Source: a virus
Reading direction: 5' to 3' (one strand)
Length of the DNA stretch: 64,000 nt
Virus record (IMG/VR): IMGVR_UViG_3300021961_010439
Span: 15,638-79,637 of that record
Shown: positions 11,941 to 64,000 of the stretch, one piece after another
Layout: every line of letters begins with the position of its first letter
Numbering within the stretch: the first letter of the stretch is position 1
Program-made: the position numbers and the translations under genes
Notes under the pieces: generated by a model
What the model saw: the letters and a program-made list of their open reading frames with translations, nothing else
What the model was told of the DNA's origin: nothing
The model's database searches: none

Positions 11941-11969
11941 ATTATAACAGGGCCACGCGGCCATGTCAA
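11941..11969 (-). promoter_or_regulatory. Consensus sigma70 promoter for ssb
   Basis: TTGACA-17 nt-TATAAT with an extended -10 TGn on the minus strand, 44 nt upstream of the ssb ATG. Confidence 0.85.
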
Positions 11970-13573
11970 GACGATGGTAGAAAAACCTTTTCAACAATTA
12001 ATCCATCTTTCGTATTAGATTTTTTACCTTTAATAATAATAACATTACCTTCAAATAGTACGTGTCTAAACTGTTTATACTGTTCAGAAAAACACACTAT
12101 TGAATCTGCACAACCAGTACCATCAACAACAGATAAAAAGGCCATATCTTGACCCTTACTTTTGCCGCTTTTGGTTTTTACAACATGTATTCTATCTATT
12201 TCTCCTGCTAGTAGAATATTAGATAAGTTAATATTATTTTTAATATCTCTACATGTTGCATTGGTCATTGTTATATCATACATATCAATTTTAGAACATG
12301 TTATAGGACATCCTAATAGTTCATTTTCTGTATCTGATATCCACTCAGCAGAATCTTCTAAACTAAATGGTGGATGTAATACAGTATACATTAATTCTTG
12401 TACAATAGCTAGCCTATTTTTAGATAGTTTATTTTGTGCAAGATATTGGAGGCTACTATAAAGATTATTATTTATGTTCGACTTGATAATCTCTAGTTCT
12501 CTCGCTGTTAGTTGAGATAATATTGATAGGTCGAACAACATACCATTACGACTTTTTCCAAAAATATCTAATGCTCCCGACCCTATTAATGCTTTGGCCG
12601 CTACACTATTAATTTTTAATAGAACGTCTATCAAGAATAGATACCAGTAATTAGAATCGTATTTAACATTAGCGGCCTCAATAATTTTAATCATCTTATC
12701 AAATACTGATTTACCAACACCCTTAATATCTGTTAGTCCAAAATAAATATTTTCATTATATAAACAGAAGAATTCATTTAGTAATCTTATATCTGGTGTT
12801 CTTATAGAAATATCCATTTCATTACCATTTTGAACCAATTCTTTAATTTCTTGCTGAGGATCTATTTTGTCTTTAGCAAATCTTAGATATGAAGCAAAGA
12901 ATATTTTTGGAAAATGAGCTTTAGTGTAGGCCGATAAATATGCATTAATAGCATAACTAACAGCATGACTTTTATTAAAAGAATATCTTTGGCTTTTCTC
13001 GATCCATCCGAAAATTTCTTCTGCCTGATCCTGATTAACTATTTGTTGATTTTTCGATCCTTCAAGGAATTTTAATTTTACTTTTGCCATTTCTTCTGGT
13101 TTCTTTTTACCAATAGCTTTTCTTAACATATCGGCCTCTTGAAGATTAAAACCAGCAACAGTTTGTGCTATTTCCATAGCTTGTTCTTGATAAATCATTT
13201 CTCCATAAGTGGTCTTTAGTGCTTTTTCAAGAGACGGATGAAAATAATCTAAACTTTCTTGTCCATTCTTTTTATCTATATAATGGTTGCTAACACTTTT
13301 ACCTTCTCTAAAAGCTTCAAGAGATCCTGGTCTCATGATGCTAATTAAAGCAGAAAGTTGTTCTATATTTTCTGGTTTAAGTTTTTTGGCCATAGTTCGT
13401 CCAAGTCTTGATTCTAACTGAAAACATCCTTTGGTATTTCCGGACGAAATCAAGTCCCAAGTTCTAGAACACTCCAGGTTAATATTATCTATAGAAGCAT
13501 TAAAATCTATAGATAATGATTCTTCATTTATGACTGGAAATTTACAGCCACAAGGATAAGTAAAATATTTCAT
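11966..13573 (-). CDS. dnaE: DNA polymerase III alpha, C-terminal half (fingers, HhH, OB)
   Basis: GCFQLES, IYQEQ, ADMLRKAIGKK, YSFNKSHA and FGLTDIKGVG motifs; OB fold MAFLSVVDGTG. Confidence 0.93.
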   Translation of the reverse strand: MKYFTYPCGCKFPVINEESLSIDFNASIDNINLECSRTWDLISSGNTKGCFQLESRLGRTMAKKLKPENIEQLSALISIMRPGSLEAFREGKSVSNHYIDKKNGQESLDYFHPSLEKALKTTYGEMIYQEQAMEIAQTVAGFNLQEADMLRKAIGKKKPEEMAKVKLKFLEGSKNQQIVNQDQAEEIFGWIEKSQRYSFNKSHAVSYAINAYLSAYTKAHFPKIFFASYLRFAKDKIDPQQEIKELVQNGNEMDISIRTPDIRLLNEFFCLYNENIYFGLTDIKGVGKSVFDKMIKIIEAANVKYDSNYWYLFLIDVLLKINSVAAKALIGSGALDIFGKSRNGMLFDLSILSQLTARELEIIKSNINNNLYSSLQYLAQNKLSKNRLAIVQELMYTVLHPPFSLEDSAEWISDTENELLGCPITCSKIDMYDITMTNATCRDIKNNINLSNILLAGEIDRIHVVKTKSGKSKGQDMAFLSVVDGTGCADSIVCFSEQYKQFRHVLFEGNVIIIKGKKSNTKDGLIVEKVFLPSS

Positions 13574-14268
13574 ACTGTTGATGTTGCAAATGAATCTTTA
13601 AATAGGATTTTATGAGATAATCTACGATGTAGTTTCATAAATCTAATCAAAATCTCAGCAGTATCTTTAACGTCCTTAATAGCATCGTGAGCGCCTTCTT
13701 TGGGTATGCCAAAATAATCTCTAACATTATCTAGTGTATAACTAGTTAGGTCTTGGTTGTTTTCAAACCATAAAAACATTACATTCATAATATCAACAAC
13801 ATCTCTCATAAAAAATAGATTACTTCTACTTTCTTTATTAAGATTATTATACTTCTTACTTAGTCTTTCGATAATCTGTAGATCAAATCTGTGAATATTG
13901 TAGCCTGCGGCAATTGGAGCCGTAAATTGGCTCTTTTTACCTCCTCTACAATGATATTTCATAAGATAATCTACAAATAAAGACCAAGAGCTTTTTTGAG
14001 AAGGATACTGATTCCATTCTGCTAGTACATTCTCTTTTGTTGATCCTTTAACTTTAGCATGAAAATCTAGGATATCTCCCTCATAAATATAATTAGGATT
14101 ATCTTCTAGAACCTCTGGCTTAAAATTAATATTGAATTCTGATCCAGGAATAATTGACAACTGTAATGGATCAACCATAACGGCCGCGATTTGAACAGGA
14201 CTACAAATAAATGGATCCGAGCCATCTGTTTCAAAATCAAAAACACAAATTTTGTTATAATTAATCAT
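13570..14268 (-). CDS. DEDDh 3'-5' exonuclease (DnaQ/epsilon-like)
   Basis: FDFETDG (ExoI), AGYNIHRFD (ExoII) and AHDAIKD (ExoIII). Confidence 0.9.
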   Translation of the reverse strand: MINYNKICVFDFETDGSDPFICSPVQIAAVMVDPLQLSIIPGSEFNINFKPEVLEDNPNYIYEGDILDFHAKVKGSTKENVLAEWNQYPSQKSSWSLFVDYLMKYHCRGGKKSQFTAPIAAGYNIHRFDLQIIERLSKKYNNLNKESRSNLFFMRDVVDIMNVMFLWFENNQDLTSYTLDNVRDYFGIPKEGAHDAIKDVKDTAEILIRFMKLHRRLSHKILFKDSFATSTV

Positions 14269-14446
14269 TTACTTCCACTTGTGCAACTGGTACAATAAAT
14301 CTTTTATCTTCTGGATTATCTTTTTTAGCAGCGTTAAGTGCTGTGCAGCAACTTACTCTAATTGTTTCTATCTTAGTATAGTTTTGACCCTCATATACAA
14401 ATGAAGATCCTACGGCTAATTCATGAAATTGTACACTCTTGGACAT
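14261..14446 (-). CDS. Small hypothetical protein
   Basis: 61 aa ORF with a GGAGG RBS, coupled between dnaE-N and the exonuclease. Confidence 0.7.
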   Translation of the reverse strand: MSKSVQFHELAVGSSFVYEGQNYTKIETIRVSCCTALNAAKKDNPEDKRFIVPVAQVEVND

Positions 14447-16322
14447 TTTTTCCTCCAGTTTTAAGTAAATCTTTAATTGTCATAATCTTATCTAACATTG
14501 CTATACCCAATATATCGAATTTAATTATACCGATACTTTCTAAATCTTGCATTTCCATTCCCGCAATAAGTTGTTCGTTTTTTGAATCGTATACCATCGG
14601 GCAAATAGTTTCAAGCTGTTTTTCTGCTATAACAACTCCTGCCGCGTGTTTGCTTTGATTCGACTTTGTTCCTTCTAATCTAATAGCCTGCTCAAACCTT
14701 TTGGCAAGTGGCCCTTTTAATTCTTGTGTGTCTTTATCCAGATAACACCAGTCTTTGAGATTGTCCGCATTATTTTCTAATGCCCACTGTATAATAGATG
14801 CTTCGCCGTATTCTTCTTTCATTTCTTGAAGTTCATCTGCTATTTTGGCTTCATCAGGAATATACTTGGTTATTTTATTCATTTCATCAAACGATATATT
14901 ACCATATACTCTTAAAACATCTTTTAGGGCTCCTCTACCTTTCATTGTATTAAAAGTTATCATTTGAGATACTTTATCGAAACCATACTTTTGTTTAATG
15001 TATGTAATAATATTTTCTCTTTTGTTGATTGGTACGTCAACATCTATATCTGGCATTGATACTCTATCTTTTGTATTTCTTCCAGCATTATAAAATCTAT
15101 CAAAAATTAGATTATATTTAATTGGATCAATACTTGTTATACCAATAAGATACGAAACTAAACATCCCGCAGCGCTTCCTCTTCCGGGTCCGGGTAACCA
15201 ATTATTGGCTTTTACATAATTAACTATATCTTGAACAATAAGAAAATAACTAGATAAACCAGCTCCTTGTAAAACATCTAATTCATATTTAATTCTGTCA
15301 ACATATTCACTTTGATTTTCTTTTGCAATACTGTTTGCTATTTTTTCTTTCCACCCATCTCTACATAATTGTCTTAAATATTCAGCATCATCATAATTGG
15401 ATGGACACTTAAACATTGGTAGCATTGGTTTGTGTGTAATATCATATTCTTCACATAATGAATCTACATATTGAGTATTTTCTATTTCTTCCTCTGTATG
15501 TAAATTATTAATCTCTTCTTGTGATAAAATATGAAAATTATCAGAAGTAAAAAAACAACTCATACCAACTTCTTGGTCAGAATCCATTTTAGACTGTATA
15601 TTCTGAAAAGTTGTTTTCAAATTATTGCATAATAGCACTCTTTGATCAACAGCATCTTCTTTTCTGCAATAATGAGCATCTGGAGTACATATTACTTTTG
15701 TGTTTGATGCTAATCCTAACTCTCTAATTTTTTCTGTAAGAGTTTCTTGTATAGGATTATTAATTTTATCCATTAATTGGGCTTCTAAAAATAAATTATC
15801 CCCAAATATCTCTTTAAGTTCTGATATGCAATTGAGACCAATTTTTTTCCAGTCATCTATGATAGTATCATTTAGTACTATTCTATCAGCTAACACCGAT
15901 CCAAGATGACCACAAATGCCTATAAGGTCAGGCCCACAAACGTTTTTGAGTCCGTTTAGATCGATCCTAGGCTTCCTATAAAAACTTTCCGGGCTGTTGG
16001 ATACAGAAATTAAACGGATAAGATTTTGCCAACCTCGTAGATTCTTAGCCAATACAAGAAAATGAGATAGTTTGCTATTTTCTTTAACTTTATTTTTAGG
16101 ATCATCTTTGCATACATATATTTCACAACCAAGAATAGGCTTAATATTCTTTTTCTTCATAGATGTAAAAAACTGAACAGATCCAGCAATATTACCATGA
16201 TCCGTCAAGGCACAAGACTTTGCTCCTATCTCGTGACATCTATCAGCAATTTGCTCAGGTTTGCTTAGTCCGTCTAATAAAGAAAAATGAGAATGTACAT
16301 GGAGAGGAATATAAGTTTTCAT
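14421..16322 (-). CDS. dnaE: DNA polymerase III alpha, N-terminal half (PHP + palm/thumb)
   Basis: LHVHSHFSLLDG, TDHG, GRGSAAG and catalytic PDIDVD and KFDILG motifs. Confidence 0.95.
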   Translation of the reverse strand: MKTYIPLHVHSHFSLLDGLSKPEQIADRCHEIGAKSCALTDHGNIAGSVQFFTSMKKKNIKPILGCEIYVCKDDPKNKVKENSKLSHFLVLAKNLRGWQNLIRLISVSNSPESFYRKPRIDLNGLKNVCGPDLIGICGHLGSVLADRIVLNDTIIDDWKKIGLNCISELKEIFGDNLFLEAQLMDKINNPIQETLTEKIRELGLASNTKVICTPDAHYCRKEDAVDQRVLLCNNLKTTFQNIQSKMDSDQEVGMSCFFTSDNFHILSQEEINNLHTEEEIENTQYVDSLCEEYDITHKPMLPMFKCPSNYDDAEYLRQLCRDGWKEKIANSIAKENQSEYVDRIKYELDVLQGAGLSSYFLIVQDIVNYVKANNWLPGPGRGSAAGCLVSYLIGITSIDPIKYNLIFDRFYNAGRNTKDRVSMPDIDVDVPINKRENIITYIKQKYGFDKVSQMITFNTMKGRGALKDVLRVYGNISFDEMNKITKYIPDEAKIADELQEMKEEYGEASIIQWALENNADNLKDWCYLDKDTQELKGPLAKRFEQAIRLEGTKSNQSKHAAGVVIAEKQLETICPMVYDSKNEQLIAGMEMQDLESIGIIKFDILGIAMLDKIMTIKDLLKTGGKNVQECTIS

Positions 16323-24505: not shown

Positions 24506-24520
24506 TATTAATATACACCA
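24506..24520 (-). promoter_or_regulatory. Candidate phage-sigma promoter motif TGGTGTATxxA
   Basis: TGGTGTATATTAATA upstream of phoH; the same core recurs at 48365-48380 and 54914-54929. Confidence 0.45.
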
Positions 24521-48364: not shown

Positions 48365-48380
48365 TATATTAGATACACCA
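48365..48380 (-). promoter_or_regulatory. Candidate phage-sigma promoter motif
   Basis: TGGTGTATCTAATATA immediately after a terminator and upstream of the membrane cluster. Confidence 0.45.
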
Positions 48381-54913: not shown

Positions 54914-54929
54914 AAAATAGTATACACCA
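54914..54929 (-). promoter_or_regulatory. Candidate phage-sigma promoter motif
   Basis: TGGTGTATACTATTTT in the intergenic region about 40 nt upstream of 54878. Confidence 0.45.
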
Positions 54930-58636: not shown

Positions 58637-58868
58637 CTGTCTTTTTAGTTTCTTTAATAGGTATTATTGTACTATTATGATCCATAGTGAATATAGGAAT
58701 ATTATCTACTACTGTACTAGAATCAATCCACCTAGAAGACCCATCAGATAATGATACGCACCTTTTAAAATCATTAGTTTTTCCTGTTTTAAAGTCTGTA
58801 GTTAATAAAAAATAGATATTATCTACATTAAAAACATCACCACCAGATAATTCTTCTAATAGTCTCAT
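58620..58868 (-). CDS. Hypothetical protein
   Basis: Coupled 82 aa ORF. Confidence 0.65.
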   Translation of the reverse strand: MRLLEELSGGDVFNVDNIYFLLTTDFKTGKTNDFKRCVSLSDGSSRWIDSSTVVDNIPIFTMDHNSTIIPIKETKKTDEFSS

Positions 58869-59041
58869 CTATAGTAGTCTTTCCAAAATTCCCAATCCTC
58901 TTGATCCAAATCCTCTTTTTTGGCTTTTATCTCTTTTTTTTGTTTTTTATACTGACGATATTCGTCTGTATAGTTTTTCTTATCGTCTATTTTCTTATCC
59001 AAACTTTGTTTTCTTTGTATTTTTCTATCGTCCGGATTCAT
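58865..59041 (-). CDS. Small charged protein (58 aa, not in the ORF track)
   Basis: MNPDDRKIQRKQ...EDWEFWKDYYR; GGGAG RBS, upstream promoter and ATGA overlap with the next gene. Confidence 0.7.
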   Translation of the reverse strand: MNPDDRKIQRKQSLDKKIDDKKNYTDEYRQYKKQKKEIKAKKEDLDQEDWEFWKDYYR

Positions 59042-59060
59042 CTATCGTCTCCCTGGTTTT

Positions 59061-59088
59061 ATAGTAGACACGGCCACAAAAGAGTCAA
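59061..59088 (-). promoter_or_regulatory. Sigma70-like promoter
   Basis: TTGACT-16 nt-TACTATAAA. Confidence 0.6.
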
Positions 59089-59114
59089 GAAGCATCTTTT
59101 GAAGACAATGCAAC

Positions 59115-59142
59115 TTGACAAACATAGAATACTCATTACTAT
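59115..59142 (+). promoter_or_regulatory. Sigma70-like promoter pointing antisense into the subtilase gene
   Basis: TTGACA-16 nt-TACTAT on the plus strand; no plus-strand gene starts downstream. Confidence 0.5.
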
Positions 59143-59167
59143 TGATGCAGCTTGGGTGATGTTATTC

Positions 59168-60106
59168 TTATATAACAACAGGGTATATAATACCATTTCC
59201 TTCATATCTTCTATCCCCAGCGTATTCTGATTGAGACAAATGTCTTGAATATTTACTAAATATTTCTATATATTCATCTTTGGTTAATTTCTTACTAGAG
59301 ATTCTCATTCTTGCAGACGACAGCAAAAGCGCAGCACATCCTACAGCAAAAGGCGTAGCCATACTTGTACCACTCATTAGAGCATAAGAATTATTGGGCA
59401 TACAACTTGGTATATCTTGACCGGGCGCCACAAAGTCCAGACTATCTCCTGTGCAACTAAACGAACAAATTTTCAAATTTTTATCTATTGCTCCTATACT
59501 AATAGTTTGAGAATATTTTGCAGGATATTTTATATCTGTATCATTACCAGAATTACCAGCAGCACAAAAAATCACAACATTTCTTGATACAGCATATTTT
59601 AGAGCATCTTCTAATTGTCTAGACGGATGATCCGAACCAAGTGACATAGTAAGAATATCTGCACCGTTGTCGCAGGCCCATATTATACCTCTAGCAACAT
59701 CGGTATTTGAACCCATACCCTCTTCATTTAGAACTTTAACAGGTAGTATTTTGATTTTTGGAGCAACTCCGACAACGCCAAGAAGATTATTTGCGGCACC
59801 TATTGTACCAGCAACATGTGTACCATGACCATTATCATCGCTAGTATTCGCATTATTTTTGATAGCATTCCACCCTTGTAGTAGATTATCTTTAAGATCA
59901 TCATGAGAAGAGTCACATCCTGTATCAAGAACACCAACAGTAACATTTTCACCCATAGTTTTATTCCAAACTTTTTCTACATCGAATAATTTAATTGGCC
60001 AAGGATAAAATTGCATAGATCCATATAAACCATGAATATTTTCTCTGGTATGTGGAAGAAGACCGCATTCGTTTTTTCTTTTAAAGTTGAACATATTTTT
60101 GAACAT
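59168..60106 (-). CDS. Subtilisin-like S8 serine protease
   Basis: VGVLDTG (Asp), GHGTHVAG (His), AAGN and SGTSMATP (Ser). Confidence 0.95.
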   Translation of the reverse strand: MFKNMFNFKRKNECGLLPHTRENIHGLYGSMQFYPWPIKLFDVEKVWNKTMGENVTVGVLDTGCDSSHDDLKDNLLQGWNAIKNNANTSDDNGHGTHVAGTIGAANNLLGVVGVAPKIKILPVKVLNEEGMGSNTDVARGIIWACDNGADILTMSLGSDHPSRQLEDALKYAVSRNVVIFCAAGNSGNDTDIKYPAKYSQTISIGAIDKNLKICSFSCTGDSLDFVAPGQDIPSCMPNNSYALMSGTSMATPFAVGCAALLLSSARMRISSKKLTKDEYIEIFSKYSRHLSQSEYAGDRRYEGNGIIYPVVI

Positions 60107-60107
60107 A

Positions 60108-60881
60108 TTATTTCTTACTTTCTATTTCTTGTACTGAATTATTTATCCAATCAGAATATCTACTGATCCTAGTATGAAGACTCACCGCACCATATTTTGA
60201 CTTACCTTTATTTGGTTTATCTTCTATTACTCCAGAATGTATGCCCGCTAATTTACTATCTATGAATAAACCTCCTCCGCTATCTCCCGGAGAGATTAAA
60301 AACTCTAAAGATGTTTTTCTATATGATAAAGAAGGAGAGCAAAATAACATATGATCATTTACATGATCAATAACATTAGATCCTGCTCTCTTTTCTCCTC
60401 CATTCCTATTTACACCTGTGATAAAGTTACCAGTTGATCCAAATCCAGATAAACAACTAATTTTACCTGATTCATTATTTTCTACATACAATGATGGATA
60501 CCATTTTAAGTCTAAATTTTCTGATAATATACAAATCGCTATATCATAACTACCAAATTTTTCATAATCATATTTTGGGTGAATAATTATTTCTTTAATC
60601 AAAATTGGTTTTTTGTTGAATATCACAGCGGCCTGTTTATTTTTATGAAACAAATGAGCAGCTGTAATAACAATATTAGACTTATATGCAACAGCAGATC
60701 CAGAATATGGAGAATTATCTTCTTTTGTACCAACTAATAATCCTATAAATGGAAAATGTTGTGCATATTCTATATATTTTTGATCTGGTACTTTAGGATC
60801 TATTGTACCAGCATAACATTCTGGTAAAGAATAAGATAAAAATAGTATCAAAAATTTAATAAAGTATTTCATAAAATCCAA
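60108..60881 (-). CDS. Trypsin-like S1 serine protease with signal peptide
   Basis: TAAH, YDIAI and GDSGG motifs; hydrophobic N-terminus. Confidence 0.92.
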   Translation of the reverse strand: MDFMKYFIKFLILFLSYSLPECYAGTIDPKVPDQKYIEYAQHFPFIGLLVGTKEDNSPYSGSAVAYKSNIVITAAHLFHKNKQAAVIFNKKPILIKEIIIHPKYDYEKFGSYDIAICILSENLDLKWYPSLYVENNESGKISCLSGFGSTGNFITGVNRNGGEKRAGSNVIDHVNDHMLFCSPSLSYRKTSLEFLISPGDSGGGLFIDSKLAGIHSGVIEDKPNKGKSKYGAVSLHTRISRYSDWINNSVQEIESKK

Positions 60882-60882
60882 C

Positions 60883-61890
60883 TTATAATACTTGAGAAGC
60901 TATTAGACATCCTTTTGCTACAGCGTGTAAAGGATCGTCAGCATGTATTACTTCTTTGATTGGAAGAGGAAAATTATTAGAAACTAATTTTGAATGAAAA
61001 GTTTCTACATATCCTTTTGCTAACGATGTCCCACCAGCAACAACAACTTTTAATGGGTCTTTAAATTTTGGCAATAGTTTATGATTAGTTAAAGTTAAAC
61101 TTAAATGTTTGGTTGTATAATCTATAAGTCTATCATAATATGAGCAAACAGCATCTAAAATTGGATTACTATTATGTTCTCCTATCTTATAGATACCCTG
61201 TTCCTTTTCTGCTTGTACAACACTATCCGGCTCTCCAAGAGCAACAGATACCATTCGATCTATCCAGTCTCCAGACTTTGTTGTGCTAAATGTTACGGTT
61301 GGTTCTCCATTCAACATAACACAAACATTTGTCATACCGGCACCACAACTAACACCTATGCCAGTATAATCACTATCCTCTAATCCAGCATAGCATAATG
61401 CTTCGGCTTCATTAATCGCCCTAGCATCATAACCCTGTTCTGCTAAAATTGATTTTACTACATCTTCGTGATATCCAACATCAAAATCATTATCTTCAAC
61501 ATCAACAGGTTGAGCGGGTTTGCAAAATACTAATTTTTCACCGGGCTCCGAAGCAACGCCGACTACTTCTTTTAGTATAAAAGCTAATACTTTTTTTGCT
61601 TCTTTTTCTTTTGATGATACAACGCCCTTGTACATTGGCCTTTTAGCGCTATCATTTCTTTCTATAGCTTTTTCTATAGCATCTTTACCTAAGAGAATAA
61701 ATGAATTATCACTATCTTTGATAAATACTTTTCCAGATAATCCTTTTTCAATCATTTTTGTGGCTACTGGAGTAGTTGGTCTAATGATGTAAAAAGCATC
61801 TCTAAAATCTGTATAGCTAATATTATTTTCCACATTTTTTGCTAGTACTATAAAACTAGTACCAACATCAAGTCCAACACCACTACTCAT
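60883..61890 (-). CDS. Actin-fold ATPase (MreB/MamK/FtsA-like)
   Basis: GLDVGT (phosphate 1), INEAEA (connect 1), SCGAGMT (phosphate 2), VAGGTS (adenosine) and DPLHAVAKG (connect 2). Confidence 0.88.
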   Translation of the reverse strand: MSSGVGLDVGTSFIVLAKNVENNISYTDFRDAFYIIRPTTPVATKMIEKGLSGKVFIKDSDNSFILLGKDAIEKAIERNDSAKRPMYKGVVSSKEKEAKKVLAFILKEVVGVASEPGEKLVFCKPAQPVDVEDNDFDVGYHEDVVKSILAEQGYDARAINEAEALCYAGLEDSDYTGIGVSCGAGMTNVCVMLNGEPTVTFSTTKSGDWIDRMVSVALGEPDSVVQAEKEQGIYKIGEHNSNPILDAVCSYYDRLIDYTTKHLSLTLTNHKLLPKFKDPLKVVVAGGTSLAKGYVETFHSKLVSNNFPLPIKEVIHADDPLHAVAKGCLIASQVL

Positions 61891-61901
61891 AAAGACCTCC
61901 G

Positions 61902-62198
61902 CTATTGTTTTAGATTTTTGAGTTTGTTAACAGATGACTGAACATTATCTGTAGTGATTTTTGTTTCTCCTAACGAATTATACTTTTTTTCCATTCCATC
62001 AGTATTTATTTTTGTGACTACTTTGCTAGTATCTATTTCTATCTTAGGTTTACTATTTTTTTCTTGATCAAAAAAACTCTTAGTGTTTTTATATTCTGTA
62101 CTAGTAGAACCACTTTTACCCAATAGGTATCCAAGACTAAAACAAACTATGTTCAGTAATAATAGTATAAATATGACTATATCATTAACGCTTAACAT
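61902..62198 (-). CDS. Single-pass membrane protein
   Basis: N-terminal TM IVIFILLLLNIVCFSLGYLLG and a charged tail ending VNKLKNLKQ. Confidence 0.75.
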   Translation of the reverse strand: MLSVNDIVIFILLLLNIVCFSLGYLLGKSGSTSTEYKNTKSFFDQEKNSKPKIEIDTSKVVTKINTDGMEKKYNSLGETKITTDNVQSSVNKLKNLKQ

Positions 62199-62216
62199 TT
62201 TTACACCATATTTTGG

Positions 62217-63488
62217 CTAAATAATAATATTTGATATAGGTTGACCGTTATCAATAATTTTAACTGGTCTATTTCCAGGAGCCATTAAATGTTTTGAGTG
62301 ATCAATACCTAGCAAGTGATAGATGGTCGCTCCCCAATCCTCAACTCCTACAGGATCATCTTGTGGTTCGCTCGCTGTCTCGTTGCTTGAGCCATGCACG
62401 ACCCCTTTTTTAATTCCACCGCCTGCCATGAGGGTACTAAAAACTTTAGGCCAATGGTCGCGTCCTGCCGTTGGATTGATTTTTGGTGTGCGTCCAAATT
62501 CAGTGGCTACACAAACTAATGTACTATCCAATAAACCTCTAGAATCTAAATCATTTATTAAAGAACTTAGAGCTTGATCAAATGGTGGTAATTGAACAGA
62601 AATATTATTAGCTATATTATCATGATGGTCCCATCCGCCATATGTAACGGTAACAAATCGTACTCCAGCCTCAATCAGTCTACGACTAAGCAATAGTCTC
62701 ATTCCAGCAGAATTTTTTCCATAACTATTTTTGGTTTCTTCATTTTCTTTATTCAGATCAAAAGCATCTATCGCTTGTGTTGAATTCATTATATCATAAG
62801 CATTTTGATAAAAAGAGTTCATCGAGTCTAAAGCGTCTGATTTTTGACTAACATTGAATTCTTTGTTGACTACTTCTAACATAGCGCGTCTTTTATCAAA
62901 TCTTTGAATACTAATTCCATCTGGTAATTTTAAATCTCGTACTTTAAAGTTAGGATCTTCAGGATTACCACCAAGACTAAATGATGAATAACTATGACTT
63001 AAAAATCCAGCACCAGCAAATTCATTTGGAACATTTGGTACGGTCACATAAGGAGGTAGACTATTCCTGACTCCCAATTGTTGACTGACTACTGATCCTA
63101 AACTGGGATATTGAAGGGCTGGACTTGGCCTATATCCAGTAAACATATTATTTGTTCCACGCTCATGTGCTGTTTCACTATGGGTCATAGATCTTATAAT
63201 ACTAATTTTATTAGCAATTTTACTTAGTTCTGGTAAATATTGACTAAAATATATTCCTGGTATAGATGTTTGAATACTACTTAATGGTCCACGATAATCT
63301 ACTGGAGCATTAGGTTTAGGATCAAATGTTTCTTGATGAGCATATCCACCCGGTAGATAAATATAAATCACAGATTGAGCCTTGGCATTTTGTACATTGT
63401 TATCTTCGGCTCTTGCAGATAAATAGTCACCTAAATTTAGTCCTAAATATCCTAAAGAACCCGCTTGTATAAAATTTCTTCTTTGCAT
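62217..63488 (-). CDS. DUF1501 family protein with a Tat signal
   Basis: MQRRNFIQAG twin-arginine signal; LPGG..HQETFDPKP, RRLIEAGVRFV, GWDHH and EFGRTPKIN..GRDHW motifs. Confidence 0.92.
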   Translation of the reverse strand: MQRRNFIQAGSLGYLGLNLGDYLSARAEDNNVQNAKAQSVIYIYLPGGYAHQETFDPKPNAPVDYRGPLSSIQTSIPGIYFSQYLPELSKIANKISIIRSMTHSETAHERGTNNMFTGYRPSPALQYPSLGSVVSQQLGVRNSLPPYVTVPNVPNEFAGAGFLSHSYSSFSLGGNPEDPNFKVRDLKLPDGISIQRFDKRRAMLEVVNKEFNVSQKSDALDSMNSFYQNAYDIMNSTQAIDAFDLNKENEETKNSYGKNSAGMRLLLSRRLIEAGVRFVTVTYGGWDHHDNIANNISVQLPPFDQALSSLINDLDSRGLLDSTLVCVATEFGRTPKINPTAGRDHWPKVFSTLMAGGGIKKGVVHGSSNETASEPQDDPVGVEDWGATIYHLLGIDHSKHLMAPGNRPVKIIDNGQPISNIII

Positions 63489-63528
63489 AATTAAATATCC
63501 CTTTGGAACTAATACACTATTATAAGAA

Positions 63529-63553
63529 AATAGGTGGGATATACCCACCTATT
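63529..63553. terminator. Hairpin (probable terminator) between ruvB and DUF1501
   Basis: AATAGGTGGG-ATATA-CCCACCTATT perfect 10-bp stem, followed by a T-run on the minus strand. Confidence 0.75.
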
Positions 63554-63589
63554 GTAGAGATTAAAATAGAATTATAAGAGTATTTTTAC

Positions 63590-64000
63590 TTACTTATGTT
63601 TATACTCTGAAATTACTCTACCCTTTTGGGTTCTTGATATGAACCTTTTTCTAACAAGATATGGTTCGATACTATTCTCGATAGTTTCTATTGCTATTCC
63701 TGTTAGTGATGATATGGCCTTTAATCCAAGAGGATTACCCTTGCTACTAACAAGCAATTCTAAATACATTCTATCATAGTTATCCAACCCATTCTCATCA
63801 ATACCCTGAATGTCAAATATTTCAGAAATACTTTTTGTAGATTCTGGATGACACAATTTGTAATTCTTATACCATTGTAGTCTAGAGTTCAAAATTCGTG
63901 GAGTGCCTTTGCTTCTTTTAGCAATTTCTAGCAATTCATCTTCGCCAATATCAATAGCCAGTTTATCAGAGTTCGATCTTGCTAGTTTAGCTAAATCAGT
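63590..64000 (-). CDS. ruvB: Holliday junction branch-migration helicase RuvB, C-terminal part (truncated by the window)
   Basis: EIAKRSKGTPRI, IDENGLD..D, GPLG-like GNPLG, IEPYL and RTQKGR motifs; frame is open to the window end. Confidence 0.9.
   Translation of the reverse strand, partial: TDLAKLARSNSDKLAIDIGEDELLEIAKRSKGTPRILNSRLQWYKNYKLCHPESTKSISEIFDIQGIDENGLDNYDRMYLELLVSSKGNPLGLKAISSLTGIAIETIENSIEPYLVRKRFISRTQKGRVISEYKHK

What the first reader, a model, noticed from the sequence alone, without database searches (positions are those of the whole stretch)
59168..63488. Phage module: Tat-DUF1501, membrane protein, actin-like ATPase, trypsin and subtilase
Seen: five co-oriented genes with gaps of only 18, 11, 1 and 1 nt, bounded upstream by a hairpin (63529-63553) and downstream by a promoter region. 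They encode a twin-arginine DUF1501 protein, a single-pass membrane protein with a conserved-looking C-terminal helix, an actin-fold ATPase with all five actin motifs, a signal-peptide trypsin and a subtilase without a long prodomain, both proteases with full catalytic triads. Known: actin homologues are rare in phages, DUF1501 is an uncharacterised family expanded in Planctomycetota, and planctomycetes lack FtsZ and have an unusual envelope. Inference: a membrane-tethered phage cytoskeleton coupled to proteolysis on both sides of the inner membrane, serving envelope remodelling, virion positioning or egress. This is my best candidate for an undescribed system.
Basis: partly seen in the sequence, partly recalled or inferred. 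Interest (0 to 1): 0.8.

Follow-up and report, generated by a model that had tools for sequence, protein, structure and literature searches.

The report
Phage membrane-anchored actin with neighbouring proteases
An uncultured freshwater/estuarine phage carries its own actin-like filament gene paired with a small membrane-anchor gene; two serine proteases are frequent neighbours and may work with the pair, but the DUF1501 gene is a recent unrelated insertion, so the proposed five-gene system is really a two-gene core with accessories.

Summary
All five genes exist as described: same strand, with the stated gaps, intact catalytic motifs and the upstream hairpin. They are not one conserved module.

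**What 110 related phage loci (72 distinct actins) show**
- The invariable unit is the 98-aa single-pass membrane protein followed directly by a Volactin-family (Pfam PF25216) actin, seen in 70 of 72.
- RuvB lies upstream in 41 of 44 loci.
- DUF1501 is present in 5 of 44. It is 56-65% identical to Planctomycetota/Verrucomicrobiota genes and sits as an insertion between RuvB and the anchor.
- The exported trypsin is nearby in 43 of 54 loci. It is often separated from the actin only by an HNH homing endonuclease. In one lineage it is fused in frame to the anchor's outer end.
- The signal-less subtilase, which resembles an intracellular subtilisin, is nearby in 25 of 54.

**Links to cellular systems**
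- The anchor's C-terminal L-x-K-L-K-x-L motif also ends the genes upstream of Volactin-family actins in Planctomycetota (18 of 42 versus 1.5% of control ORFs).
- The family was found in 113 of 301 sampled Planctomycetota genomes and 0 of 301 Verrucomicrobiota.

**Reading**
This is most likely a membrane-tethered phage actin filament, with a periplasmic protease probably working at the same site. What the filament does is still inferred.

Earlier agents in this scan found the anchor-actin pair on other DNA. No paper I could search describes it.

The parts
63590..64000 (-). 3' part of a RuvB-like gene (AAA lid plus winged helix), cut by the contig end. It is the conserved upstream neighbour of the anchor-actin pair.
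   Evidence: Pfam RuvB_C 1.9e-20 and AAA_lid_4 4e-7. RuvB lies upstream in 41 of 44 related loci.
63529..63553 (-). Terminator-like hairpin after RuvB (AATAGGTGGGTATATCCCACCTATT followed by a T-rich tail).
   Evidence: (10 pairs, 5 G-C) and the sequence.
62217..63488 (-). DUF1501 protein with a twin-arginine signal (MQRRNFIQAG). A lineage-specific insertion acquired from PVC bacteria, not part of the conserved unit.
   Evidence: Pfam 6e-116. It is 56-65% identical to Planctomycetota/Verrucomicrobiota genes. It is present only in L002-L011 and L206, that is 5 of 44 unique loci.
62201..62207 (-). GGTGTAA motif directly upstream of the anchor gene. The same GGTGTA(W) motif precedes the anchor in relatives that lack DUF1501, so it may be the pair's own start signal.
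   Evidence: The motif is not enriched in the window overall. Four of its six minus-strand copies lie in short spacers just upstream of gene starts.
61902..62198 (-). 98-aa bitopic membrane anchor: N-terminal TM helix, variable linker, and a conserved cytoplasmic tail ending ...SVNKLKNLKQ.
   Evidence: It is adjacent to the actin in 70 of 72 unique loci, mostly with gaps of 1-13 nt. Invariant residues are G23, I55, I64, K72, K92 and L93. The same terminal motif occurs in planctomycete partner genes. N-out topology follows from the trypsin fusion in L074.
60883..61890 (-). 335-aa Volactin-family actin-like ATPase.
   Evidence: Pfam PF25216, 202.9 bits against a cut-off of 35. AF2 pLDDT 95.5. 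Foldseek matches MreB, MamK and BeeR at TM 0.63-0.76. It is 77-90% identical across 80 phage loci, the most conserved gene of the neighbourhood.
60108..60872 (-). Exported trypsin-like serine protease: signal peptide, then a conserved GTIDP mature N-terminus.
   Evidence: Pfam Trypsin 1e-13. TAAH and GDSGG are kept in 54 of 54 unique homologues, all with signal peptides. Present in 43 of 54 loci. Fused to the anchor in L074/L076.
59168..60106 (-). Subtilase without signal peptide or prodomain, resembling an intracellular subtilisin, with a conserved N-terminal LLP[YH] motif.
   Evidence: Pfam S8 8e-58. It aligns end to end with intracellular subtilisin proteases 7xr8, 2x8j and 2wv7. The triad motifs are kept in all 29 sequences, allowing DSG and HGS variants, and LLP[YH] is conserved. 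Present in 25 of 54 loci.
58869..59167 (.). 299-nt spacer downstream of the subtilase, holding sigma-70-like hexamers on both strands.
   Evidence: The count of promoter-like sites is not above the shuffled expectation.

Best explanation
**Core unit.** The functional core is a two-gene phage cytoskeletal unit.
- The 98-aa protein sits in the inner membrane with its short N-terminus outside and its tail in the cytoplasm.
- Its conserved C-terminal motif (L-x-K-L-K-x-L) recruits or nucleates the phage's own Volactin-family actin.
- Infected cells would therefore build membrane-tethered actin filaments.

**Proteases.**
- The exported trypsin-like protease is probably a working partner on the periplasmic side of the same anchor. 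It is the next non-mobile gene after the actin in most relatives, and once it is covalently fused to the anchor.
- The cytoplasmic subtilase, which resembles an intracellular subtilisin, is a looser and optional companion.

**DUF1501.** It is a recently captured PVC-type exported enzyme inserted between RuvB and the unit. It is not part of the unit.

**Timing and purpose.** The unit lies among replication and nucleotide-metabolism genes on the same strand. I infer that it acts during the replication phase to organise the infected cell, for example by positioning phage DNA or assembly sites at the membrane or reshaping the cell, rather than at lysis.

**Shown versus inferred.**
- Shown: gene content, fold, pairing, motif sharing, the fusion and the distribution.
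- Inferred: polymerisation, tail-actin binding, protease coupling and the cellular purpose.
For: **The pairing**
- Anchor plus actin are adjacent in 70 of 72 unique phage loci.
- The actin is 77-90% identical. The anchor (34-54%), trypsin (40-59%) and RuvB (58-83%) have diverged much further. This is expected for a polymer with many contact surfaces.

**The actin**
- Pfam Volactin, 202.9 bits.
- AF2 pLDDT 95.5.
- MreB, MamK and BeeR are the top structural matches.
- The nucleotide-binding glycines and aspartates are invariant in a 49-sequence alignment.

**The tail motif**
- It is shared with genes upstream of Volactin-family actins in Planctomycetota: 18 of 42 versus 21 of 1418 control ORFs, Fisher p about 1e-19 (examples).

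**Published precedent**
- Haloferax volactin forms dynamic filaments that touch the membrane by their tips (PMC10869688).
- Its gene neighbour HVO_2016 is a CdpA-like membrane protein with TM segments, a disordered linker and a small C-terminal domain (PMC12126565).

**The trypsin link**
- Present in 43 of 54 loci, and within 1.5 kb downstream in 30 of them.
- The common ~300-nt insert between actin and trypsin is an HNH endonuclease.
- L074/L076 encode one ORF of signal peptide, trypsin, TM segment and tail, followed by actin and then subtilase. This ORF is topologically coherent.
- Signal peptide, TAAH and GDSGG are kept in 54 of 54.

**DUF1501 as an insertion**
-.

**Independent assemblies**
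- They bridge the junctions.
Against: - No binding, polymerisation or expression data exist.
- The phosphate-2 motif reads S-C-G-A-G rather than the usual D-x-G-G-G. This is family-wide: S181 is nearly invariant. ATPase chemistry may therefore differ.
- The related phages are collinear, so conserved neighbourhood partly reflects common descent rather than function.
- Eight of 54 loci have neither protease within 6 kb. Among them is the L012-L015 group, which is 81% identical in the actin.
- The trypsin-anchor fusion is a single evolutionary event, seen in two near-identical contigs.
- In two huge phages, distant actin relatives (31-34% identity) have no TM partner and no protease nearby.
- The individual tail-HMM hits in planctomycetes are weak (best E = 0.016). 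The case rests on the recurrence of the motif.
Confidence: 0.5

Rival explanations
1. Only the anchor-actin pair is a system. The trypsin, subtilase and DUF1501 are independent exported or cytoplasmic enzymes that happen to sit in a variable accessory-gene hotspot of a collinear phage backbone. They could serve host-protein degradation, superinfection exclusion or lysis of a protein-rich envelope.
For: - Spacing and order vary. Trypsin lies 0-5 kb downstream or upstream, and subtilase sits before or after the trypsin or alone.
- Eight of 54 loci have neither protease.
- Other exported or mobile genes come and go at the same spot: thioredoxin in 39 of 110 loci, HNH, and DUF1501.
- Phage S8 proteases are known in unrelated large Bacillus phages without any actin.
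- The window also encodes other peptidases, according to earlier notes.
Against: - The in-frame trypsin-anchor fusion, with coherent topology, sits next to actin and subtilase in L074/L076.
- Trypsin is the next non-mobile gene after the actin in most loci once the HNH inserts are discounted.
Confidence: 0.3
2. The actin is not a cytoskeletal filament. It is a membrane-recruited actin-fold ATPase acting as an adaptor or regulator, as PilM does with PilN, FtsA with FtsN, or the cytoplasmic domain of GspL. It would control whatever the anchor does across the membrane.
For: - PilM appears among the structural matches, and weak Pfam hits to PilM_2 and FtsA occur in relatives.
- The partner is a bitopic membrane protein with a short conserved cytoplasmic peptide, as in PilN.
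- The phosphate-2 motif is atypical.
Against: - The best structural matches are the filament formers MreB, MamK and BeeR, at higher TM-scores (0.63-0.76) than PilM (0.53-0.55).
- The family's founding member forms dynamic filaments in vivo (PMC10869688).
- The very high sequence conservation fits a polymer.
Confidence: 0.1
3. It is a ParMRC/AlpAC-like DNA segregation or transport system. The actin would move or partition phage genomes, for example in a plasmid-like carrier state or towards membrane replication sites, with the anchor as the fixed end.
For: - Prophage AlpC/AlpA is a precedent (PMC4446434, PMC5539076).
- Some cellular Volactin-family actins are fused to a ParB-type HTH (P0142, P0147; L223).
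- The pair follows RuvB and lies among replication genes.
- Volactin dynamics have been likened to ParM.
Against: - No DNA-binding domain was detected in the anchor.
- No centromere-like repeat array lies around the module.
- The partner is membrane-embedded rather than DNA-bound.
Confidence: 0.07
4. One reading: all five genes, DUF1501 included, form one co-evolved system that couples a cytoskeleton to proteolysis on both sides of the membrane.
For: - Tight spacing and a shared strand in this window.
- The arrangement is reproduced in independent assemblies and in L011.
Against: - DUF1501 is present in 5 of 44 relatives. In L002-L005 it lies 3.1-3.8 kb upstream of the actin.
- The anchor keeps its own conserved upstream motif downstream of DUF1501.
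- Subtilase is absent from more than half of the loci.
Confidence: 0.03

Closest known systems
Volactin (VolA, HVO_2015) of Haloferax volcanii with its CdpA-like membrane neighbour HVO_2016
   Same: - The same Pfam family (PF25216, 202.9 bits).
[quoted passage not shown]
- Volactin filaments contact the membrane by their tips (PMC10869688).
   Different: - It is phage-encoded. The phage clade is monophyletic and separate from the sampled cellular sequences.
- The anchor has one TM helix, not four.
- Homology between the two partners' tails could not be tested here.
- Proteases neighbour the phage pair.
- Volactin's role is cell-shape transition in an archaeon.
Volactin-family actin plus coiled-coil partner cassettes of Planctomycetota
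   Same: - The partner gene lies directly upstream of the actin and ends in the same L-x-K-L-K-x-L motif.
- The family is found in 113 of 301 sampled genomes.
- One subclade has a membrane Peptidase_MA_2 gene directly after the actin, echoing the order partner, actin, protease.
   Different: - Cellular partners are 160-640 aa and show no TM segment by hydropathy.
- The peptidase belongs to a different family.
- As far as I could find, these cassettes are themselves uncharacterised.
AlpC/AlpA of the Corynebacterium glutamicum prophage CGP3, and ParM/ParR
   Same: A virus-encoded actin-like protein with a small adaptor gene. The adaptor is proposed to tether the filament to its cargo or site (PMC4446434, PMC5539076).
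   Different: - A different actin family.
- AlpA and ParR bind DNA repeats. Here the partner is a membrane protein, and no repeats were found.
MreB-RodZ and MamK
   Same: These are the best structural matches (TM 0.63-0.76). MreB is coupled to a bitopic membrane protein (RodZ, 2wus).
   Different: - Sequence identity is only 14-18%.
- The Pfam MreB match is partial and sits at the threshold (28.4 against 27 bits, residues 57-213).
- No PDB sequence hit.
- The partner has no RodZ-type HTH domain.
Intracellular subtilisin proteases (ISPs) of Bacillus and relatives
   Same: - The subtilase aligns end to end with ISP structures 7xr8, 2x8j and 2wv7.
- It lacks both signal peptide and prodomain.
- It has a conserved N-terminal LLP[YH] motif that resembles the inhibitory LIPY motif of ISP pro-peptides. 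Papers on that motif are listed (PMC6220982); its role is taken from my own knowledge and that abstract.
   Different: - It is phage-encoded.
- The motif differs by one residue, and an inhibitory role is untested.

Membership tests
Volactin family (Pfam PF25216) | The profile HMM match is above the curated gathering score over the full length | tested here: met
   202.9 bits against a cut-off of 35, residues 5-331 on profile positions 3-320 of 321.
Volactin family (Pfam PF25216) | Actin/MreB-type two-lobed fold with conserved nucleotide-binding motifs | tested here: met
   - AF2 pLDDT 95.5, pTM 0.92.
- Foldseek top hits are MreB, BeeR and MamK.
- Invariant residues D8, G10, G183, G185, G286 and G287.
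- Phosphate-2 is S-x-G-A-G, a family-wide trait.
Volactin family (Pfam PF25216) | Forms dynamic filaments | not testable with these tools
   Known only for Haloferax VolA (PMC10869688).
Volactin-partner pairing (membrane or coiled-coil partner with a conserved C-terminal motif) | Partner gene directly upstream, ending in L-x-[KR]-[LM]-[KR]-x-[LMFV] | tested here: met
   - Phage: 70 of 72 loci, with K92 and L93 invariant.
- Planctomycetota: 18 of 42 versus 1.5% of control ORFs.
Volactin-partner pairing (membrane or coiled-coil partner with a conserved C-terminal motif) | The partner tail binds the actin | not testable with these tools
ParMRC / AlpAC type II partition systems | DNA-binding adaptor protein | tested here: not met
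   The anchor has no Pfam or PHROG domain. It is a TM protein, and its nearest Atlas clusters are unnamed viral proteins.
ParMRC / AlpAC type II partition systems | Centromere-like repeat array next to the operon | tested here: not met
   Only scattered weak two- or three-copy repeats in 58800-64000.
MreB | Full-length match to the MreB_Mbl profile | tested here: not met
   A partial match only (residues 57-213, 28.4 bits against a cut-off of 27). No PDB sequence match at E <= 0.01.
Peptidase S1 (trypsin), exported | His-Asp-Ser triad and an N-terminal signal peptide | tested here: met
   - Pfam Trypsin 1e-13.
- TAAH and GDSGG in 54 of 54 homologues, all with hydrophobic N-terminal leaders before GTIDP.
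- The Asp is read in the window sequence (YDIAI).
Intracellular subtilisin proteases (S8, ISP type) | S8 triad, no signal peptide, no I9 prodomain, short N-terminal extension with a LIPY-like motif | tested here: met
   - Pfam S8 only.
- End-to-end alignment to ISP structures.
- DTG/HGT/GTS and LLP[YH] are conserved in 29 sequences.
- The inhibitory function of the motif is not tested.
DUF1501 (PF07394), Tat-exported | Full-length profile match and a twin-arginine leader | tested here: met
   388 bits, profile positions 1-390 of 390. MQRRNFIQAG sits at the N-terminus. Closest relatives are in Planctomycetota and Verrucomicrobiota.

The most novel reading that the evidence does not exclude
The anchor is a trans-envelope coupler. 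Phage actin filaments in the cytoplasm would set where, through the single-pass anchor, an exported trypsin-like protease acts in the periplasm, and where an intracellular subtilisin acts on the inside. That would be cytoskeleton-guided, spatially restricted proteolysis of the host envelope during infection. Nothing like it has been described for any virus of bacteria.
Probability: 0.15. Interest if true: 0.85.

Novelty: new variant of a known kind. Interest (0 to 1): 0.6.

Why it matters
Known phage cytoskeletons are the tubulin PhuZ/TubZ and a few ParM-like actins tied to DNA. This would be a different kind: a very strongly conserved Volactin-family actin tethered to the membrane by a minimal adaptor.

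It is widespread.
- 217 IMG/VR stretches encode relatives.
- About 2,200 proteins match in the large protein collection.
- This very stretch occurs in at least ten independent freshwater, estuary and drinking-water studies.

The phage anchor is a 98-residue, naturally minimised form of the partner found next to the same actin in a third of sampled Planctomycetota. Its architecture also resembles the CdpA-like neighbour of volactin in Haloferax. The phage pair is therefore a convenient handle for working out how this whole, barely studied actin family is attached and regulated.

The natural trypsin-anchor fusion gives a concrete and testable hypothesis: filaments and periplasmic proteolysis are spatially linked.

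Tried and rejected
- **The look-up of encoding contigs.** The contexts of the 40-55% identical relatives (P0121, P0123, P0125 and others) therefore stay unknown.
- **The search for related loci with P0121 and P0123.** These returned only members of the same phage clade or nothing.
- **A stand-in for the complex prediction.**
  - I folded P0126, a natural relative whose actin carries a 110-aa N-terminal extension.
  - Residues 1-35 came out confident (pLDDT 86-91) ahead of a disordered linker.
  - No coordinates are returned, so docking on the actin cannot be checked.
  - The tail HMM does not match P0126 or P0132, so I draw no conclusion from this.
- **The long planctomycete fusions of 600-940 aa.** They have acidic disordered extensions without the tail motif, so they were no use for the same purpose.
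- **Sequence search of the actin against the PDB.** No hit.
- **PHROGs for the actin, anchor and DUF1501.** No family.
- **Megablast of the module against INPHARED.** No match. Only two huge uncultured phages carry a 31-34% identical actin, and there it lacks a TM partner or a nearby protease.
- **Atlas look-up of the anchor.** Only unnamed viral clusters came back.
- **RNA evidence.** No RNA holder is listed, so co-transcription could not be examined.
- **GGTGTAW as a general phage promoter.** The motif is not enriched in the window (8 found, 11.9 expected). It is kept only as a local observation.
- **Recent planctomycete origin of the phage actin.** Rejected, because the clades are separate.

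Full report
**1. What is there**

The window is the last 64 kb of a 79,637-bp IMG/VR viral contig. It has about 31% G+C, and nearly all its genes are on the minus strand. PHROG matches to a split PolIII-alpha-type DNA polymerase, a DnaB helicase and ribonucleotide reductase identify it as a large tailed phage.

The five ORFs of the finding exist at the stated coordinates with gaps of 18, 11, 1 and 1 nt.
- The 443-aa ORF (DUF1501, 6e-116) has a Tat-like MQRRNFIQAG at its internal ATG, position 63488.
- The 335-aa protein is Volactin PF25216 (1e-59, 202.9 bits), with only a partial, threshold-level MreB match.
- The 257-aa protein is Trypsin (1e-13).
- The 312-aa protein is Peptidase_S8 (8e-58).
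- The 98-aa protein matches nothing.

The hairpin at 63553-63529 is real. Promoter-like hexamers in the downstream spacer are no more frequent than chance. Contigs from independent public runs bridge the gene junctions, so the arrangement is not an assembly artefact. Near-identical sequence occurs in at least ten studies of fresh water, estuary and drinking water.

**2. Which genes belong together**

The actin brought in 217 related stretches from IMG/VR. I examined 80 of them, plus 30 more from a second scan.

Results over 72 distinct actin variants:

| Feature | Frequency |
|---|---|
| Anchor homologue upstream of the actin (mostly 1-13 nt away) | 70 of 72 |
| RuvB upstream | 41 of 44 loci with enough flank |
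| DUF1501 | 5 of 44 (only the closest relatives) |
| Trypsin within the flanks | 43 of 54 loci with at least 5.9 kb downstream |
| Trypsin within 1.5 kb downstream | 30 of 54 |
| Subtilase | 25 of 54 |
| Both proteases | 22 of 54 |
| Neither protease | 8 of 54 |

- In L002-L005, DUF1501 lies 3.1-3.8 kb upstream of the actin.
- The frequent ~300-nt insert between actin and trypsin is an HNH homing endonuclease. The underlying order is therefore actin, then trypsin.
- An exported thioredoxin sits directly upstream of the anchor in 39 of 110 loci, but not in this window.
- In relatives without DUF1501, a GGTGTA(W) motif precedes the anchor gene. In the window the same motif sits in the 18-nt gap between DUF1501 and the anchor. 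This suggests the pair keeps its own start signal and that DUF1501 was inserted upstream of it.
- DUF1501 is 56-65% identical to genes of Planctomycetota and Verrucomicrobiota. It is a captured host-type gene.

**3. The core pair**

*The actin*
- It is by far the most conserved gene of the neighbourhood: 77-90% identical, against 34-54% for the anchor, 40-59% for the trypsin and 58-83% for RuvB.
- It folds with pLDDT 95.5. Its best structural matches are the filament formers MreB, MamK and BeeR at TM 0.63-0.76, ahead of PilM.
- It has no sequence match in the PDB.
- The nucleotide-binding residues are invariant across a 49-sequence alignment. The phosphate-2 motif is S-x-G-A-G throughout the family.

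*The anchor*
- It has an N-terminal hydrophobic helix, a variable linker and a conserved ~45-residue tail: I-D-D-x-K-x-V-x-x-I-x-T-x-G-L-E-K-K-Y-x-x-L-G ... S-I-N-K-L-K-N-L-K-G. Residues K92 and L93 are invariant.

*The family in cells*
- The Volactin family has about 893 clusters at 50% identity.
- It was found in 113 of 301 sampled Planctomycetota genomes and in 0 of 301 Verrucomicrobiota.
- In Planctomycetota the gene directly upstream of the actin is a 160-640-aa coiled-coil protein without a TM segment.
- That gene ends in the same L-x-[KR]-[LM]-[KR]-x-[LMFV] motif in 18 of 42 cases. Several misses are gene-calling errors. The rate in control ORFs is 21 of 1418.
- This independently reproduces a claim made by earlier agents of this scan on other genomes.

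*Published work*
- Volactin filaments in Haloferax are dynamic and touch the membrane by their tips (PMC10869688).
- The phage anchor looks like a minimal membrane-bound version of this recurring partner.

*Phylogeny*
- In a FastTree phylogeny the phage actins are monophyletic and lie outside the clade holding 40 of the 42 sampled planctomycete sequences. This is an old phage lineage, not a recent capture.

**4. The proteases**

*Trypsin*
- All 54 distinct trypsin homologues keep a signal peptide, a GTIDP mature N-terminus, TAAH and GDSGG.

*Subtilase*
- It has no signal peptide or prodomain and aligns end to end with intracellular subtilisin structures.
- It keeps its triad and a conserved N-terminal LLP[YH] motif. 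This resembles the inhibitory LIPY motif of ISP pro-peptides (papers).

*The fusion*
- The strongest hint of a functional link is L074/L076. There, one ORF encodes signal peptide, trypsin, TM helix and tail. It is followed 4 nt later by the actin and then directly by the subtilase.
- The fusion is topologically coherent: protease outside, tail inside. It also fixes the anchor's orientation.
- It is, however, a single event in two near-identical contigs.

*Against a strict dependence*
- Some lineages have no protease nearby (L012-L015).
- Distant actin relatives in two huge phages have neither a TM partner nor proteases nearby.

*A suggestive parallel*
- One planctomycete subclade has a membrane Peptidase_MA_2 gene directly after the actin.

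**5. Mechanism**

*Most likely*
- The anchor tethers or nucleates phage actin filaments at the inner membrane.
- The exported trypsin probably acts at the same site.
- The subtilase is an optional cytoplasmic companion.
- DUF1501 is unrelated.

*Timing*
- The unit lies among replication and nucleotide-metabolism genes on one strand. This argues for action during replication rather than at lysis.

*Still inferred*
- Polymerisation, tail binding, protease coupling and the cellular purpose (positioning of DNA or assembly sites, or cell reshaping).

*Rivals*
- A pair-only system with unrelated neighbours.
- A PilM/FtsA-like non-filament adaptor.
- A ParM/AlpC-like DNA mover. ParB-HTH fusions in some cellular relatives favour it. 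The lack of a DNA-binding domain or centromere repeats counts against it.

**6. Novelty**

Phage actins (AlpC) and the Volactin family are known. I found no paper describing a phage Volactin-family actin with a membrane anchor, or its association with proteases. The pair has already been reported by this scan on other DNA. What this window adds:
- the demonstration that DUF1501 is an insertion;
- the quantified protease linkage;
- the HNH explanation for the variable spacing;
- the natural trypsin-anchor fusion.

**7. Limits**

No RNA run holds the stretch. Homology of the tail to the haloarchaeal CdpA-like domain could not be tested. The host is unknown: a PVC, probably planctomycete, host is suggested by DUF1501 and by the actin family's distribution, but it sits oddly with 31% G+C.

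Noticed in passing
P0122 (protein; 56% identical to the window actin): A relative of the phage actin is split by an intein with a LAGLIDADG homing endonuclease, inserted right after the phosphate-2/'FSTTKS' region (Pfam Intein_splicing, LAGLIDADG_3). Several other ~700-aa representatives also match in two stretches.
   Followed up: partly
L074:4448-4759 and the equivalent position directly after the actin in about 48 of 110 related loci: A 104-aa HNH endonuclease gene is the common ~300-nt insert between actin and trypsin. This explains much of the variable spacing. It is absent from the window.
   Followed up: yes
L074:4074-4445 and 39 of 110 related loci, directly upstream of the anchor: An exported thioredoxin (signal peptide, WCPAC) often sits between RuvB and the anchor. 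It is one more periplasmic protein at this spot. Absent from the window.
   Followed up: partly
window 62201-62207, 54922-54928, 48373-48379, 24513-24519 (minus strand): GGTGTA(A/T) lies in short spacers just upstream of gene starts at four of its six minus-strand occurrences. It also precedes the anchor gene in many relatives. This may be a phage-specific promoter element. It is not enriched overall.
   Followed up: partly
L212, L213, L215, L216 (Planctomycetota loci; also L168, L172): In one planctomycete subclade the Volactin-family actin is followed by a membrane protein of the Peptidase_MA_2 family (3.8e-9 in L172). The order there is partner, actin, peptidase.
   Followed up: partly
P0142, P0147, L223:3584-5458: Some cellular Volactin-family actins carry an N-terminal ParB-type HTH domain. 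This hints at DNA-linked roles for part of the family.
   Followed up: no
Genome samples: The Volactin family was found in 113 of 301 sampled Planctomycetota genomes, often in two or three copies, and in none of 301 Verrucomicrobiota. This is a striking phylum-level difference within the PVC group.
   Followed up: partly
L154 (RFNS01000161.1, labelled Alphaproteobacteria MAG, 7.2-kb contig): It carries a DUF1501 gene 84% identical to the phage copy, far closer than any PVC genome. This is probably a contig of a related phage binned into a bacterial MAG.
   Followed up: no
window 11966-16322 (minus strand): The PolIII-alpha-type DNA polymerase is split into two ORFs. ORF 14421-16322 covers PHROG 405 positions 42-616, and ORF 11966-13573 covers positions 622-1076. 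A 232-aa ORF (13570-14268) lies between them.
   Followed up: no
P0126 residues 1-35 (model m05695d79c896): The N-terminal 35 residues of a relative's actin extension are predicted with pLDDT 86-91 ahead of a ~65-residue disordered linker. Whether this element docks on the actin domain could not be checked.
   Followed up: partly
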